NCBI GenBank assembly: GCA_026770705.1
Contig: JANJGN010000026.1
Location: 5,828,001 to 5,892,000, forward strand
Direction of reading: 5' to 3'
Source of the DNA: Isurus oxyrinchus
Lineage: Eukaryota
DNA: 64,000 nt
Numbering within the stretch: the stretch's first letter is position 1; every line of letters starts with the position of its first letter. A program made the position numbers. Shown one piece after another: positions 42,001 to 48,000 of this stretch.

Positions 42001-45000
42001 CACTCGATGCATCACATCGACCAAATTGGAAACACAGTTTCCAGCATAGAAGAGCATTTGCACTTTGGAAATATTACTCTTTCATACATGCGTACCAGCA
42101 GTTCTCAGTCCATTTCGTAATTTTCATGAGCACCTGCGGATGCAATGCGTCTGGAATCGGATTTTTGCTCCCTCAAGAATGCGCTATTTTGCGTTTCTTT
42201 CAATACCAACTGCAAAAGGAAGTTAGAAAATGAATTCGTTATTCCTTGTTATTCGGCGAAAATTGGGGCAAAATACATATCAATAAGACTGTCATTCCAA
42301 ACTATGTGGTTATGTTGCTTCTCTTTTTCGTGGACCTATCGGCACCTTAGTTAATGTGTTCTAGGAGTGTTCATGCAACACAATTAATATGAGTTTCTAT
42401 GTCATTTGATACTTTCTGTTTATGTTCCACATACTCACAGAATTGCCAGAGCGCAGAAGGAAGCATTTTGTCCCAACCTGTCTGCATCAACTGTTTCAAT
42501 AAGCAATTTACCAGCTTCATTCTCCCATCCACTCCATATATCCTTCTCCCTTTTCAGATACCAATCTAATTCCCTTAAATTGCCCCGATTGAACTTCTCT
42601 GCATGAAATTCTCAGGCACTGCTTTCCAGATCTTAAGCACTGCTGCATGAAACAGTCTTTTCTACTTTTGCTTATCTTTTCCAATTACTTTAAACCTCTA
42701 CCGTGTCGTTCTTGATTATTTCACGAGTAACAATAGTTCTCCATATTTACTCCACCCAGATCCCTAATGATTAAACTGCTTTTTCAATACTCTTCTTAGC
42801 CTTACTTTCTCTAAGGAAAACAGTCGTAGCTTTTCCGACCATCTCACGAGCTGAAGTTTATTATCCCTGTAAACATTCTCATGAATTATTTTTACACCCT
42901 CTCCAATGCCTTCACAAGCTTCCTGAATTGCGGACGCCCAGAACTGGACGCAACGCATCTACTAAAGCAGAGCTACTATCTTGTATGAAATCGGCATAAC
43001 TTCCTTGCTCGTGTAGTCAGTGCCCCTACTCATAAAGCCTAGGGCACTATATCTTTTATTAAACGCTGTCTCATAGTATCAACCAACATTAAGTGACTAA
43101 TGTACATATACAGCCAGGTCCCTCAGCTCCTGGGAAACCTTTAATTTATGCCTTTTATTTTATATAGTCTGTCCATGGTGGTCATATCGAAAAGAATAAC
43201 TTCGAAATTGTCCGTATTGAACTCCACTTGTCACCGGCCTTCCCATCCCTGCTACAAGTGTAATGTATTTTTGGAAATATAAGCCATCCTCACTGACACC
43301 TGGGGAACACCACTCAAAACCTTCCTCCCGCCCTCAAAATAAAACGAAGAACCTACCACCATCGGTCAGCCGATTTCGTATCCATGTTGCTACTTTTGCA
43401 TTTTGTCCATGGGCTATAACATGGCTCACAATTCTGTTGTGCAGCTTTGTATCAATTGTCCTTTGGTAAGCCTATGACCACCACATAAAAAGCTTTGGCT
43501 CCATCATACATCTAAGTTACTTCCTAAAAATACTCCAGCAAGTGATTTAAACATGAACTTCCCTTAGGAAATCCATGCTGGCTTTTCTTAGTTAACACAT
43601 ATTTGTACATGTGATTGTTTATTTTGTCTCAAATAACCATTCTAGAATTTTCCCAAGCACAGAAGTTAAACTGACGGATAAATTGTTTCTGGCATTTAAA
43701 TTTTCACTCGTTCATTGAACTAGTATCGATTGTAAATGTATAGTTTGCAATTCTGCAATCCTGTGAAACCACACCTGAGTCTATGGAAGAGTAAGAAATA
43801 ATGGCCAATGCCTCCACAATTTCAAATTGCAGTTCGCCGAGTACCCTTGGATGCAGGTCATCCGCTACTGTTGCTGTACCAAATTCAATACAGACATCCT
43901 ATTCCCATCAACACCGCCCAACACCTCAACACCCCCCCCCCCCCACTAAACCACTTATCTGTTATCGACCATTCTATTGTCTAAAATATCTCCCCTTTCA
44001 CCATGGCGTGATTCGTATCTTCTTCTGTTGTGAAGACCGATGCGAAATATTCATGAAATTCCCCTGTGCCTTAGGATGTAAATCCCTTTTTAGGTCACTA
44101 ATCGGTCCTGCTCCTCCTTTTACCACCGTTTCATCATGTATGTTCTTATAGCAAACTTCGAGAAAAGGAACGTTTTACATACTCCTGCCTTGTACTGCCC
44201 CTCTAAGCATATATTATCATTTGTGTTCATAAAAGGACTGACTCACCTCTTAGTAACCGCTGAAAATTTGCATTCCAGTAGAAGAGTTTTGAATTCCATT
44301 TCATGTTGACTAGCATCCGAAATTCATATTCTCTCTTTGCCAAAGTTATCGACCTCTTCACCAACCCACAACGCCCTGGTCCCTACGCCGAAACTATTGC
44401 ATCTCACTTGACCCATGCACCTGGCATGCACCCACTCACTTTGTTTCAACATAATCTCTATCCCCCTTGTCATTCAGTGAGCTCTGTTTTAGCCCTCTAA
44501 CTTTTGGTTAGCCTGTACCGAAAGAACCCCTCCTTTTAAAATTCCCCATCATTCATTTCCAATTCTTCCCGTCAGTCTTTTGTTCCATTTTAAACTGACC
44601 AGTATACTTCACATCACATTAAAATCATCGCTTTTCCAATTTAATCCCCTACTTTATATCGTTCCTTGCTTTTCTCTAGGGATAATCTAAATCATATCAC
44701 TTGATGATCAGACTTACCCAAATGTTACCCCACACAACCATGGTCTAGTTGACCCACATCATTTCGCAGCACCAACTTCAGTACTTTGCCCTTTTTAGTT
44801 CGGCCGAGTTGTATGTAACAATTAAGATCTCCTGAACACATTTCAGAAATTCCTTCCCATCCTTCCCCTTGTCCCTAACATTAGCCTAATCCATGCTTGG
44901 GCAATTTTTGCCTCCACAAATCACCACTCTAGTCTTCTTGGCTACAGGCGTTCTGGTTCTGAAGGTGAAGTTCTGCTTGACTCTCACGTCTGTTTCACAG

Positions 45001-48000
45001 TTCCCCCCTCATTCCACAATCCAGAAATTACACTACTACAACCACGAATAGAACAGATCTTACTGGAGGCAACAGCGACCTCAATCTTAATCGTAACTAA
45101 TGCCCCTCGTGGAGACAAAGTTTCCTGGAACGAGGAACAGGAGCCTTTGAAATCAGAGGTTTCCGTCCAAACGGGTGACAGCCCTAACAGCGTGGTGAGC
45201 AACGTGAACATCTCAACACAAGCCTGGCTGAGTGGGGCTCAGTTCTACTGCGTGCTGAGCCAGCAGGTTCTGCCAACCTCTTTAAGACATTCCAGCCACA
45301 AGGAATGAGGTGTTTGCTCAGATTGAAGCAATGAGAGAACCATTGTGTCTATTTCCGGTGTAAGTGTATGGGTTACTTTTGAACTGTACCATCCATTAAT
45401 CGACTACTCGGACTATTCAACTGGTCATTCCGCAGATAAACTCCCTGGAGACATAGATCATTCGGATAACGGGAAGATGGATAAATGGATGAATGAAAGA
45501 GGAAGTGAAGGATATGGCATGAGGTGTAGATGACGTAAAGCGGGAAGTGCCTTGTGTGAGCTGAAACACCAGCACAAACAAGTTGGGCCGAATGGACTTT
45601 AACTGTGCTCAGAACTCTAACTTTACAGTTCAGCAGTTTAAGTTCTCATAGAGGAGGATAGCGTATACATTTGCTCCTGGTTAGAAAATCGAACGGAGCC
45701 CGGGAGGAAAACCTTTAAAATTCATGGCGAATCACGTTTCATTCACATCTTACCACCAGTTGCATTGTCCCTGGAATTGTCCAATTTTTTAAACATTTTT
45801 GTAAAATTTTATGCAGTTAAATATCCACGGAAACCGTCCGTCGCCGTCCTCCTGCCCCCGGCTGAAGAAGTCTCCGTTCAGAGATTCATCTCCCTCAGCT
45901 GCTAAGTAAGAGGTTTCTCCCCCGGAGAGATATTCTTCAAGTGGACCGTCAATGACAAGCCGGTCAATCCGGGGAACTACAAGAACACCGAGGTGATGGC
46001 GGAGAACTGCAATAACTCCTTCTTCATGTACAGCCTGTTATCCATTGCAACGGAGGAGTGGGCCAGCGGCGCTTCTTACTCGTGTGTGGTGGGACATCAA
46101 GCGATTCCCTTGAAGATCATCAACAGAACGGTTGATAGATCCAGCGGTTAATTCATGTCAATGAGAATCTATCGCGTATGTTTTGAACTTCAATATATGT
46201 AATGCAGTCCTTTTCCTCCATTCATGATATAAATACACAACTGCTTAATCAATTGTTGTTTCAGATCATTACAGATGTCGGACACAGTGTTGTACAAGTA
46301 GTGCCCGCAGCTGAGCAGAAGTTAGAGACGGACTAAAGTTCTTTAATCTCAAAATTCCCCACAGTTACTTCAGAAACTCTCCTTCTGCTTTGGCGAAACC
46401 CAAGATCATAGGAACAGAGGTACATAGGATTCAGGAGTAGAAGTAGGCCATTCGGCCTCTCAAGCCTACTCCACCATTTGATTCGGTCATTATTAATGTG
46501 ATTGTGATCTAAACTGCCCTTTTCTGTCTGCCACAATGAACCATTAATTCCTTTGTAACAAAATGTTGTCTCACGCTGCCTTGAACAAATTCAATGACTC
46601 AGCTTCCTGGGGAAAGTGGTTCCACAGAATAACGCCCCTCTGGGAAAAGAATAAAATCTCCTCATCACCGTCTTACGAGGGAGACATTTCATCTGAAGCA
46701 ACGTCCTCTCGTTCTCGTCTTTCAACACAAGGAGAGACTCCTTCCAGTCCCCACCCCATCAAGTTCTCTCAGGATCTTATGTTTCAATAAGATCACTTCT
46801 CATTTCTAAACTCCAGTGGGTACAGCTGAAGTGAGCTTTCCCTACATTTATATTCCATTCCGCTTGCAGTAATGGCCGACAATCCAGTTGCCTACCTATT
46901 CACCTGCTGTGCCGGTATCACAATGTTTTGTGATTCTGACAGATTTTGCATTTCCAACAAAGTTAGCACAGTTACATCCCGATATCTCCGCCTGTCGTGT
47001 TGTCTTCCCTTCAAAATTAAGGTCGGTTTTAAGTTGCAGCATCACACCCATTGAGAAGAGAAGCGTGGGCCAAAAGGCAACGTGTTAACCAGTGCACCTC
47101 CTATTCGCCGACCAGAGAGAGGGGAAAGGGCAAACATGAAATCCCAAAATTTGAGCAGAAAGTTTAGAAGGGGAAATTTCTCCGTTATATGACGCAGCTG
47201 CCAACAATACTAGTTTCTTGTCCAAAGATTTTAAACTTCCCTCATGATTATCCTCTTGCAAAGCATGTACTTAAACAACATGATATTTCAAAATTTTATT
47301 TTGACATTCCGAATTCGTTTAACCGTATCCATATGTACCTGGTGGCGTTTCCAGTAATGGAGAGCTGCCAGCCTCTGATTGGCTGACAGCAAGAGCTGCC
47401 AGAATTTGATTGGCTAACAGTTGTCAGCAGCAAGTTTTCCAACCAGATGTTGAACACCAAAAGTCCAAATTTCAACGAGTGCCTCATTTCCTCTGGTTTT
47501 ATCAGAGTTGTGTCCCCCATGATTCCGAGGCACAGCAGCAGATTTGTTGCTTGATGTCATTTTGCATCTTCGAGAAAGCACGTTTACTTGCCGAAAGATG
47601 AAAAATCGCCTCCATAATTCGTATCGGCAGGGCCAGATCTGGTTATTCGTATTCGGTGAAATTTGGAAAAAAACTTAAAATCCTCAGAAACTGACACAGA
47701 CGTACATATGAACGCACCCACATACTCATATATACATAGAAACAAGCGCAGACATATATTACCCATTAGCGGGCTCATACAAGTAAGCGCAAACATAAAC
47801 GTGAACATTAACAGACTCAACAGCACACTTTGACGATCAGAGGAATACGGACATTATCACATACACTATCGTATACATTAACGAACATAAATGGCAGACA
47901 TACACGCACATTAACAGACCCACAACGACACGAAACAAAATGTTGAGGATGATGGAAATCTGAAGTGACAAGATGTAAATGTTGGAAATACTCAACATCT

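What the first reader, a model, noticed from the sequence alone, without database searches (positions are those of the whole stretch)
44941..46240. Orphan IgM 3' half: CH3-intron-CH4 with no V, D, J, CH1, CH2 or recognisable TM exons
Cartilaginous fish IgH genes are multiple V-D-D-J-C miniclusters. Here only CH3 and CH4 remain, with their intron (so not a retrocopy). About 60 bp upstream the sequence becomes an old CR1, and I found no RSS-flanked segments in the 45 kb upstream. This points to a segmental duplication or deletion that stranded a ~1.3-kb piece of an IgM cluster. It is invisible in the ORF track.
Basis: partly seen in the sequence, partly recalled or inferred. Interest (0 to 1): 0.7.

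Follow-up and report, generated by a model that had tools for sequence, protein, structure and literature searches.

The report
Dead, truncated shark IgM gene fragment
This is a broken leftover of a shark antibody (IgM) heavy-chain gene: only its last two constant-domain exons survive, both disabled, next to a jumping-gene remnant, which makes it an ordinary pseudogene fragment and not a working gene.

Summary
On the + strand there is an IgM C-mu3 exon (45001-45309), a 507-bp intron, and a C-mu4 exon (45817-46148) followed by a remnant of the secretory tail and 3'UTR. Splice sites are canonical and both intron boundaries are phase 1. Profile E-values are 7e-38 (CH3) and 2e-51 (CH4). CH4 is 85% identical to catshark IgM.

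No V, J, CH1, CH2 or TM exon and no credible RSS was found anywhere in the 64 kb.

It has an in-frame TGA (45306-8) and TAA (45903-5), two structural cysteines lost in CH3, and about 44 nt deleted from the tailpiece.

About 135 bp upstream of CH3, the minus strand encodes the C-terminal end of a LINE endonuclease. GC skew changes near 44950.

The setting is satellite arrays and GPR139-like receptor genes, with no other Ig element in the window.

Verdict: a DNA-derived, truncated IgM pseudogene relic. Whether it arose by partial duplication or by in-situ deletion cannot be settled without the rest of the genome. Low interest.

The parts
44866..45000 (+). Residual 3' end of the C-mu2/C-mu3 intron, with a pyrimidine-rich tract and the acceptor AG at 44999-45000. 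The exact 5' limit of Ig-derived DNA is unknown within this stretch.
   Evidence: Sequence read directly. LINE homology is supported only from 44865 downward. GC skew moves from about -0.4 to about 0 between 44800 and 45100.
45001..45309 (+). C-mu3 exon, 309 nt, phase 1 at both ends, disabled. TGA at 45306-45308 is the last full codon. The first intradomain Cys is replaced by Leu (TLTC becomes SILI). The N-terminal Cys present in most functional chains is replaced by Phe.
   Evidence: (E=7e-38). Identity is 62-63% to horn shark IgM (P0005) and to P0007, and 41-57% to the others.
45310..45816 (+). C-mu3/C-mu4 intron, 507 bp, GT...AG.
   Evidence: A read-through translation of a Triakis-like contig (P0016) aligns weakly across 45493-45816 in continuity with CH4, so this looks like the native intron.
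45817..46148 (+). C-mu4 exon body, disabled by an in-frame TAA at 45903-45905, at the Leu of the conserved 'SC-L-VRGF' motif.
   Evidence: C1-set 3.8e-19; best named PDB matches are Ig mu C-mu4; 85% to Scyliorhinus torazame scyTo_0020987; 2.2e-51.
46146..46164 (+). Deletion scar in the secretory tailpiece. In frame it reads Gly then TAA (46149-51). The +1 frame from 46147 reads VNSCQ-stop, which is the last five codons of the shark IgM tail. Fourteen codons (KPSFVNISLALMDT) plus 2 nt, about 44 nt, are missing.
   Evidence: (window 46147-46218 against P0016 residues 235-258, 58% identity, E=7e-8 for the pair). The size of the deletion is inferred from the protein alignment.
46165..46218 (+). 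Start of the secretory 3'UTR, homologous to that of a Triakis-like IgM contig.
   Evidence: P0016 was read through its stop codon by its source, so its last residues report 3'UTR sequence.
44665..44865 (-). C-terminal end of an apurinic-type endonuclease domain of a decayed, 5'-truncated non-LTR retrotransposon (LINE). Its 5' end points at the Ig fragment. The body probably runs down to about 42400.
   Evidence: phmmer against 1.84 billion representatives gave 2 hits at E<=1e-3. P0021 carries Exo_endo_phos and Exo_endo_phos_2 and aligns at 40% identity over 67 residues, pairwise E=5e-11. GC skew is -0.23 to -0.53 over 42400-44950. Pfam found nothing directly. The RT motifs further down are recognised from memory only.

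Best explanation
This is a non-functional relic of one elasmobranch IgM heavy-chain minilocus. Only genomic DNA from the last 60-135 bp of the C-mu2/C-mu3 intron to the start of the secretory 3'UTR survives (about 1.3-1.4 kb).

Shown:
- The two exons are C-mu3 and C-mu4, with native splice sites, phase and intron.
- Neither exon can be translated through (TGA in CH3, TAA in CH4).
- CH3 has lost its first disulfide cysteine and its N-terminal cysteine.
- The tailpiece has lost about 14 codons plus 2 nt, which shifts the frame.
- The rest of the minilocus (VH, D, JH, C-mu1, C-mu2, TM exons) is not found in the window.
- A 5'-truncated LINE lies antisense directly upstream.

Inferred:
- The 5' breakpoint was created by, or later overwritten by, the LINE insertion or a rearrangement associated with it.
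- The 3' breakpoint lies in what was the long C-mu4-to-TM intron.
- The point lesions accumulated neutrally, either after the piece was cut off from its promoter and V region or in a cluster that was already dead.
- It makes no protein. At most it could give a sterile transcript.

Whether the piece was copied here (partial duplication or insertion into a GPR139-like, satellite-rich region) or is what remains in place of a whole cluster cannot be decided from the window.
For: Exon identity.
Splice sites, phase and stops.
Cysteine losses, and changes at 5 of 26 (CH3) and 4 of 60 (CH4) columns that are invariant in functional chains.
Tail deletion with retained VNSCQ-stop and 3'UTR.
Intron homology to another shark's IgM intron.
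Absence of V/CH1/CH2/TM/RSS.
No second copy of 43001-48000 in the window.
LINE endonuclease remnant abutting the fragment.
Compositional boundary.
Context of satellites (1-18920, 57506-60137) and GPR139-like genes.
IgM pseudogenes are known in nurse shark (Groups 6-8 and G2C). In functional nurse shark genes V-D-D-J spans about 2 kb and lies only 6.3-6.8 kb from C-mu1 (PMC2435157, passages read). On that spacing a complete cluster would fit well inside the 45 kb searched upstream.
Against: 1. The count of changes at invariant columns is not by itself outside the range of functional chains. Leave-one-out gives 0-8 changes; nurse shark IgM1gj has 8 of 34 in CH3, against 5 of 26 for the window. 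The pseudogene call therefore rests on the stops, the cysteines and the deletion.
2. CH4 is much better kept than CH3: terminal branch 0.12 against 0.53 substitutions per site. Pure neutral decay would not predict this. It fits a lineage that was functional for most of its history, and the unknown species divergence is confounded with it.
3. Pfam did not recognise the LINE, and only 2 library proteins matched it. One of them (P0020) is a TRIM-like model, not a LINE protein.
4. No target-site duplication or flanking repeat of 14 bp or more was found, so there is no direct trace of the mechanism.
5. The window has a 133-N gap (54310-54442) that was not read, and nothing beyond the window could be searched.
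Confidence: 0.83

Rival explanations
1. Semi-processed retrocopy. An unspliced secretory-form IgM pre-mRNA was reverse-transcribed by a LINE and inserted with 5' truncation. That would explain why the piece ends after the secretory 3'UTR and lacks the TM exons.
For: The 3' limit lies after the secretory 3'UTR and the TM exons are absent. A 5'-truncated shape is typical of LINE-mediated copies (general knowledge).
Against: Both the 507-bp intron and the end of the preceding intron are retained. No A-rich tract follows the 3'UTR (read). No flanking direct repeats of 14 bp or more were found. The adjacent LINE is antisense, with its 5' end towards the fragment, which is not the geometry of a 3' transduction.
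Confidence: 0.05
2. Assembly artefact. The fragment belongs to a complete IgM cluster and was mis-joined to LINE or satellite sequence in a repeat-rich, hard-to-assemble region.
For: The window holds 19 kb and 2.6 kb satellite arrays and an N gap. Multi-copy IgM clusters are prone to collapse in assemblies (general knowledge).
Against: A mis-join would not create two in-frame stops, two cysteine losses and a tail deletion inside the exons. There is no N run or abrupt repeat at 44.9 kb. The best identity to any database IgM is only 85% for CH4 and 63% for CH3.
Confidence: 0.07
3. A working non-canonical gene. The CH3-CH4 exons are used by a V-less, Fc-like or otherwise exapted transcript.
For: Splice sites and phase are intact. 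CH4 is well conserved (85%). The frame stays open for 58 codons upstream of the CH3 acceptor.
Against: TGA in CH3 and TAA in CH4 at conserved positions. The first intradomain cysteine of CH3 is lost. The tail is frameshifted. The upstream open stretch overlaps the antisense LINE remnant and has no Pfam match.
Confidence: 0.02

Closest known systems
Nurse shark IgM pseudogene miniloci (Groups 6, 7, 8 and G2C)
   Same: They are non-functional members of the multi-cluster elasmobranch IgM family, products of birth-and-death evolution. They are described as pseudogenes in PMC2435157 (passages read) and counted as three pseudogenes in the review PMC5192425 (passages read).
   Different: In the passages I read, those pseudogenes are detected with VH probes, so they retain V regions. 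Here only C-mu3 and C-mu4 remain, with no V, D, J, C-mu1, C-mu2 or TM. I did not see their sequences, so lesion types cannot be compared.
Functional elasmobranch IgM heavy chains (Scyliorhinus torazame scyTo_0020987, Triakis scyllium IgM, Heterodontus francisci mu)
   Same: C-mu4 is 80-85% identical and C-mu3 53-62% identical. The domain order, the phase-1 exon boundaries, the N-glycosylation motifs NIS (CH3) and NRT (CH4), and the tail ending VNSCQ-stop are the same.
   Different: The window copy has two premature stops, two lost cysteines and 14 tail codons missing, and it lacks every other exon of the gene.
Nurse shark IgM1gj (germline-joined IgM lacking C-mu2)
   Same: It is a divergent IgM lineage with a long CH3 branch and a short CH4 branch (0.45 and 0.12 substitutions per site, against 0.53 and 0.12 for the window). 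It also lacks a constant domain.
   Different: IgM1gj is an expressed gene with V, C-mu1, C-mu3 and C-mu4 in frame (P0013). The window copy is not its closest relative and is untranslatable.
Immunoglobulin 'orphons' and C-gene pseudogenes of other vertebrates (for example the channel catfish Ig-mu pseudogenes in the IGH2 and IGH3 loci)
   Same: They are Ig gene pieces duplicated or left outside a working unit. The catfish case is from PMC5192425 (passage read). The mammalian orphon concept is recalled, not checked.
   Different: The catfish mu pseudogenes still sit inside IgH loci next to intact delta genes. This fragment has no Ig neighbour within 64 kb.

Membership tests
Elasmobranch IgM constant-region (C-mu) sequence, by homology | C1-set Ig domains whose best matches are C-mu3 and C-mu4 of shark IgM | tested here: met
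   CH4 is 85% identical and CH3 up to 63% identical to shark IgM. Profile E-values are 2e-51 and 7e-38.
Elasmobranch IgM constant-region (C-mu) sequence, by homology | One exon per domain, with phase-1 introns and GT-AG sites | tested here: met
   Exon of 309 nt, intron of 507 nt, junction codon G|TT.
Elasmobranch IgM constant-region (C-mu) sequence, by homology | Secretory tailpiece ending ...VNSCQ-stop after C-mu4 | tested here: inconclusive
   Only the last five codons and the stop remain, and they are out of frame. Fourteen codons are missing.
Functional IgM minilocus (VH-D1-D2-JH-Cmu1-4-TM) | VH, D and JH segments with recombination signal sequences upstream | tested here: not met
   V profile best E=5.2. 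tblastn found nothing. RSS scans found no credible site.
Functional IgM minilocus (VH-D1-D2-JH-Cmu1-4-TM) | C-mu1 and C-mu2 exons | tested here: not met
   CH1 best E=1.1. CH2 gave only cross-hits to the two known exons, then 0.079 inside the GPCR ORF. tblastn found nothing.
Functional IgM minilocus (VH-D1-D2-JH-Cmu1-4-TM) | Transmembrane exons downstream of C-mu4 | tested here: not met
   A TM profile from 5 membrane forms gave a best E of 0.72, in satellite DNA. The 133 N at 54310-54442 and anything beyond 64000 were not searchable.
Functional IgM minilocus (VH-D1-D2-JH-Cmu1-4-TM) | Open reading frame and the two intradomain cysteines in each domain | tested here: not met
   TGA at 45306-8 and TAA at 45903-5. 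The first CH3 Cys is replaced by Leu.
Processed (retro)pseudogene | Introns removed, poly(A) tract present, target-site duplications present | tested here: not met
   The intron is retained. No A-rich tract is seen. No flanking direct repeats of 14 bp or more.
Non-LTR retrotransposon (LINE) remnant upstream | Apurinic-type endonuclease domain | tested here: met
   Window 44865-44665 (minus strand) aligns to residues 193-258 of P0021, at the end of its Exo_endo_phos domain and just beyond. Only the C-terminal part is present.
Non-LTR retrotransposon (LINE) remnant upstream | Reverse-transcriptase domain downstream of the endonuclease | tested here: inconclusive
   Pfam found nothing in three frames of 40000-44960 or in sub-stretches. 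The PDB search gave only weak, unrelated hits. RT-like motifs are visible by eye, which is recall only.
   No repeat library (Dfam, Repbase) was on hand.

The most novel reading that the evidence does not exclude
The fragment is a fossil of a distinct IgM minilocus lineage that no longer has a working member.

- Its CH3 has the longest terminal branch of 12 tips and groups with the horn-shark/P0007 type.
- Its CH4 stayed constrained for most of that history.
- The minilocus would have lived away from other Ig genes, in a GPR139-like and satellite-rich region.
- It would have been killed by a LINE-associated deletion that removed V to C-mu2.

If so, relics of this kind could be used to count and date extinct clusters and to show that retrotransposons drive cluster death in sharks.
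Probability: 0.15. Interest if true: 0.35.

Novelty: new member of a known kind. Interest (0 to 1): 0.15.

Why it matters
It matters little on its own. Shark IgM genes are a multi-copy family that evolves by birth and death, and pseudogene clusters are already documented.

The fragment is useful as an annotation warning. Its splice sites are intact and its CH4 is well conserved, so gene predictors could emit it as a partial 'Ig-like' protein. Several partial shark IgM models of this kind, and a shark IgM sequence filed under a bacterial assembly, turned up in the databases.

With the whole genome in hand, a catalogue of such relics and their breakpoints next to transposable elements could show how miniloci are lost and dispersed.

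Tried and rejected
1. Nucleotide reference for IgM. I scanned genome contigs for the shark IgM sequence filed under an Aeromonas veronii assembly (P0011). 62 pattern matches were found and none was confirmed by tblastn. The parent cluster and exact breakpoints could therefore not be sought.

2. A closer relative of CH3. A CH3-only search returned 3 proteins at E<=1e-10 out of 103 candidates, none above 62% identity.

3. Pfam on the minus-strand frames upstream (40000-44960, and five sub-stretches) found no LINE domain. A PDB sequence search with the RT-like stretch gave only weak, unrelated hits. The protein atlas does not accept a reading with stops as X, and I dropped that step.

4. Rfam over the whole window gave 0 matches.

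5. Flanking direct or inverted repeats around the fragment (44300-47300): none of 14 bp or more.

6. Species identification failed. The best matches are 85% (CH4, Scyliorhinus torazame), 63% (CH3, P0007) and 79% (GPCR, Heterodontus francisci), so the organism is an elasmobranch not represented at 90% or more identity.

7. Is CH3 abnormally decayed relative to CH4? CH3 identity is lower than a fit to 45 functional pairs predicts in 10 of 10 comparisons (residuals -0.6 to -21, residual sd 5.8). The two nearest relatives are within noise, and functional IgM1gj shows the same CH3/CH4 branch ratio. I rejected this as evidence of anything special.

8. The spliced CH3+CH4 model was not joined or searched as one sequence. 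Each exon was searched, aligned and treed on its own.

9. Literature. Four searches returned no paper describing an orphan C-mu3/C-mu4 fragment in a shark. These cover open-access texts only, and supplements were closed. Table S1 of PMC12227049 lists Ig gene coordinates in four elasmobranch genomes and may already include such pieces.

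
Full report
**What is there**

On the + strand the window carries two immunoglobulin constant-domain exons.

- The first exon runs from 45001 to 45309. It follows a pyrimidine-rich tract and an AG that ends at 45000, and it is followed by GT at 45310.
- A 507-bp intron follows (45310-45816).
- The second exon starts at 45817, after ...TTATGCAG.
- Both boundaries are phase 1. The split codon G|TT gives Val, which matches the '...HKEE|VKDLREPSV' junction region of horn shark IgM.

The second exon matches Pfam C1-set at 3.8e-19. The first reaches only 0.021, below Pfam's cut-off. 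Against solved structures, the best named matches of exon 2 over its full length are C-mu4 of IgM.

In the large protein collection the best matches of exon 2 are shark IgM heavy chains:
- Scyliorhinus torazame scyTo_0020987: 85%
- Triakis scyllium IgM: 82%
- Heterodontus francisci membrane mu: 80%
- nurse shark mu: 79%

Exon 1 matches the C-mu3 domain of the same proteins at 41-63%. Profiles built from 10-11 shark IgM chains, run against 3538 six-frame pieces of the window, score 7e-38 (CH3) and 2.2e-51 plus 7.6e-9 (CH4, split by its stop).

I searched each exon on its own.

**What is not there**

- tblastn with six shark IgM chains, including secreted and membrane forms, found nothing outside 44967-46148 better than E=0.40.
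- Domain profiles gave best E-values of 5.2 (V), 1.1 (CH1) and 0.72 (TM, in satellite DNA). For CH2 they gave only cross-hits to the two known exons, followed by 0.079 inside an unrelated GPCR ORF.
With a 23-bp spacer there were 3 matches against 0.61 expected, and 5 of 100 shuffles reached 3. None of the three has an intact heptamer.
- The region 43001-48000 has no second copy in the window.
- In nurse shark, V-D-D-J spans about 2 kb and lies 6.3-6.8 kb from C-mu1 (PMC2435157, passages read). On that spacing a whole minilocus would fit several times into the 45 kb searched upstream.
- The 133-N run at 54310-54442 and anything outside the window stayed unsearched.

**The fragment is dead**

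1. The last full codon of CH3 is TGA (45306-8).
2. CH4 has TAA (45903-5) at the Leu of the conserved 'SC-L-VRGF' motif.
3. In CH3 the first cysteine of the intradomain disulfide is Leu. The column is invariant in 11 functional chains. The N-terminal cysteine present in most chains is Phe.
4. After '...DRSSG' the frame hits TAA (46149-51). The +1 frame from 46147 reads VNSCQ-stop and then continues into sequence that matches the read-through end of a Triakis-like contig protein (P0016 residues 235-258, 58% identity, pairwise E=7e-8). So the last five tail codons and the 3'UTR are present, but the 14 codons KPSFVNISLALMDT plus 2 nt (about 44 nt, inferred) are deleted. This also changes the GGT-AAA site, which I recall as the cryptic donor used for the membrane exons.

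Overall, 5 of 26 CH3 columns and 4 of 60 CH4 columns that are invariant in functional chains are changed. That count is within the leave-one-out range of functional chains (0-8; IgM1gj has 8 of 34), so it is not diagnostic on its own.

**Origin from DNA, not from mRNA**

The intron is retained. Its 3' 320 bp or so aligns weakly, but in continuity with CH4, to the intron-derived part of P0016. The end of the preceding intron is present too. No A-rich tract follows the 3'UTR, and there are no flanking repeats of 14 bp or more.

**The 5' edge**

The minus strand of 44865-44665 translates, with stops, to the C-terminal end of an apurinic-type endonuclease.

- A full phmmer scan of 1.84 billion representatives gave 2 hits at E<=1e-3.
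- P0021 carries Exo_endo_phos and Exo_endo_phos_2 ('endonuclease-reverse transcriptase') and aligns at 40% identity over 67 residues, at the end of that domain and just beyond it.
- The other hit, P0020, is a TRIM-like model.
- Pfam itself saw nothing, and the RT motifs I can see further down are recognised from memory only.
- GC skew is strongly negative (-0.23 to -0.53) from about 42400 to about 44950 and returns to about 0 in the Ig exons.

A decayed, 5'-truncated LINE therefore lies antisense, with its 5' end within about 135 bp of the CH3 acceptor. The clade is untested.

A simple insertion would leave the rest of the intron and C-mu2 beyond the LINE's other end, and they are not there. 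So either a deletion or rearrangement accompanied or followed the insertion, or the piece was copied here already truncated.

**Placement among IgM lineages**

- In a CH3 tree the window copy is sister to P0007 (an unnamed-source shark IgM), with support 83, next to horn shark. It has the longest terminal branch of 12 tips (0.53 substitutions per site).
- In the CH4 tree its branch is 0.12 and its placement is poorly supported (70 or less).
- CH3 identity is below the value predicted from CH4 identity in 10 of 10 comparisons. The two nearest relatives are within noise, and functional IgM1gj has the same branch ratio (0.45 and 0.12).

I read this as ordinary domain-specific rates in a lineage whose species is not represented in the databases. 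It is not evidence of unusual decay or gene conversion. The CH4 branch bounds the neutral decay to something modest (inference).

**Context**

- 1-18920 is a satellite with a 50-54 bp unit, and 57506-60137 is another with a 54-bp unit.
- 35665-36627 (minus strand) is a rhodopsin-type GPCR of the expanded elasmobranch 'probable GPR139' family. It is 79% identical to a Heterodontus francisci protein, with no in-frame ATG before TM1.
- 21133-21573 (minus strand) is a decayed fragment of the same family.
- Nothing else Ig-like is in the window.
- The organism is an elasmobranch. None of the three window queries (CH3, CH4, GPCR) had a database match at 90% identity or more.

**Comparison with what is known**

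IgM pseudogene clusters are documented in nurse shark: Groups 6, 7, 8 and G2C (PMC2435157, passages read), and 'three pseudogenes' in the review PMC5192425 (passages read). Ig-mu pseudogenes are also known in catfish (same review).

This fragment is a further and more severely truncated example of that kind. Four literature searches returned no description of an orphan C-mu3/C-mu4 piece in a shark. They cover open-access text only, and supplements were closed, including table S1 of PMC12227049, which lists Ig gene coordinates in four elasmobranch genomes.

**Verdict**

This is a truncated, inactivated IgM gene relic of genomic-DNA origin. Novelty and interest are low.

Three questions stay open because no shark genome, reads or repeat library were available:
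- whether it arose by partial duplication or by in-situ deletion;
- the exact breakpoints;
- the LINE's clade and age.

Noticed in passing
window 1-18920: A satellite array with a unit of about 50-54 bp (TRF scores up to 11317). It has a higher-order period of about 3.1-3.2 kb, seen as repeated 157-bp sub-arrays at 8482, 11611 and 14850 and as recurring weak tblastn hits.
   Followed up: partly
window 57506-60137: A second satellite with a 54-bp unit (also scored at periods of 108 and 162 bp), 63-75% matches.
   Followed up: no
window 35665-36627 (-): A 320-codon open frame for a rhodopsin-type GPCR of the hugely expanded elasmobranch 'probable GPR139' family (1432 relatives at E<=1e-20). It is 79% identical to a Heterodontus francisci protein. 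There is no in-frame ATG before TM1 and there are two stops just upstream, so it may be a pseudogene or need an upstream exon.
   Followed up: partly
window 21133-21573 (-): A decayed fragment of the same GPR139-like family, 31% identical over 143 residues with gaps.
   Followed up: partly
window 31940-32488 (-) and 55215-55931 (+): Open frames of 182 and 238 codons that look to me like LINE reverse-transcriptase pieces. The motifs are recalled. Pfam found no family at E<=0.01.
   Followed up: partly
window 46400-46850 (+): About 170 bp beyond the Ig 3'UTR, the sequence resembles an interspersed repeat that I recall as abundant in shark genomes. There is no repeat library to test this, no second copy in the window, and GC skew is about -0.25.
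   Followed up: no
window 40842-41212 and 26173-26483: A 62-bp tandem repeat with 6 copies lies beyond the presumed 3' end of the LINE. A 165-bp repeat with 1.9 copies contains an RSS-nonamer-like ACAAAAACC but no heptamer.
   Followed up: partly
window 45309-45347 (-): An RSS-like match with a 23-bp spacer and 3 mismatches (CACAATG ... GCAAACACC) on the minus strand, at the CH3 donor. It is one of 3 such matches against 0.61 expected. I take it as chance.
   Followed up: yes
whole window; N run 54310-54442: Strand composition is lopsided: T 21633 against A 17555, and C 13953 against G 10726. This is probably due to the orientation of repeats. One 133-N run was left unread.
   Followed up: no
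database proteins P0011, P0014-P0018 (not in the window): A shark IgM C-mu3/C-mu4 sequence is filed as a hypothetical protein of an Aeromonas veronii assembly on a 742-nt contig, which looks like contamination. Several shark gene models are partial IgM chains, for example Chiloscyllium chiPu_0018911, which lacks C-mu2.
   Followed up: partly
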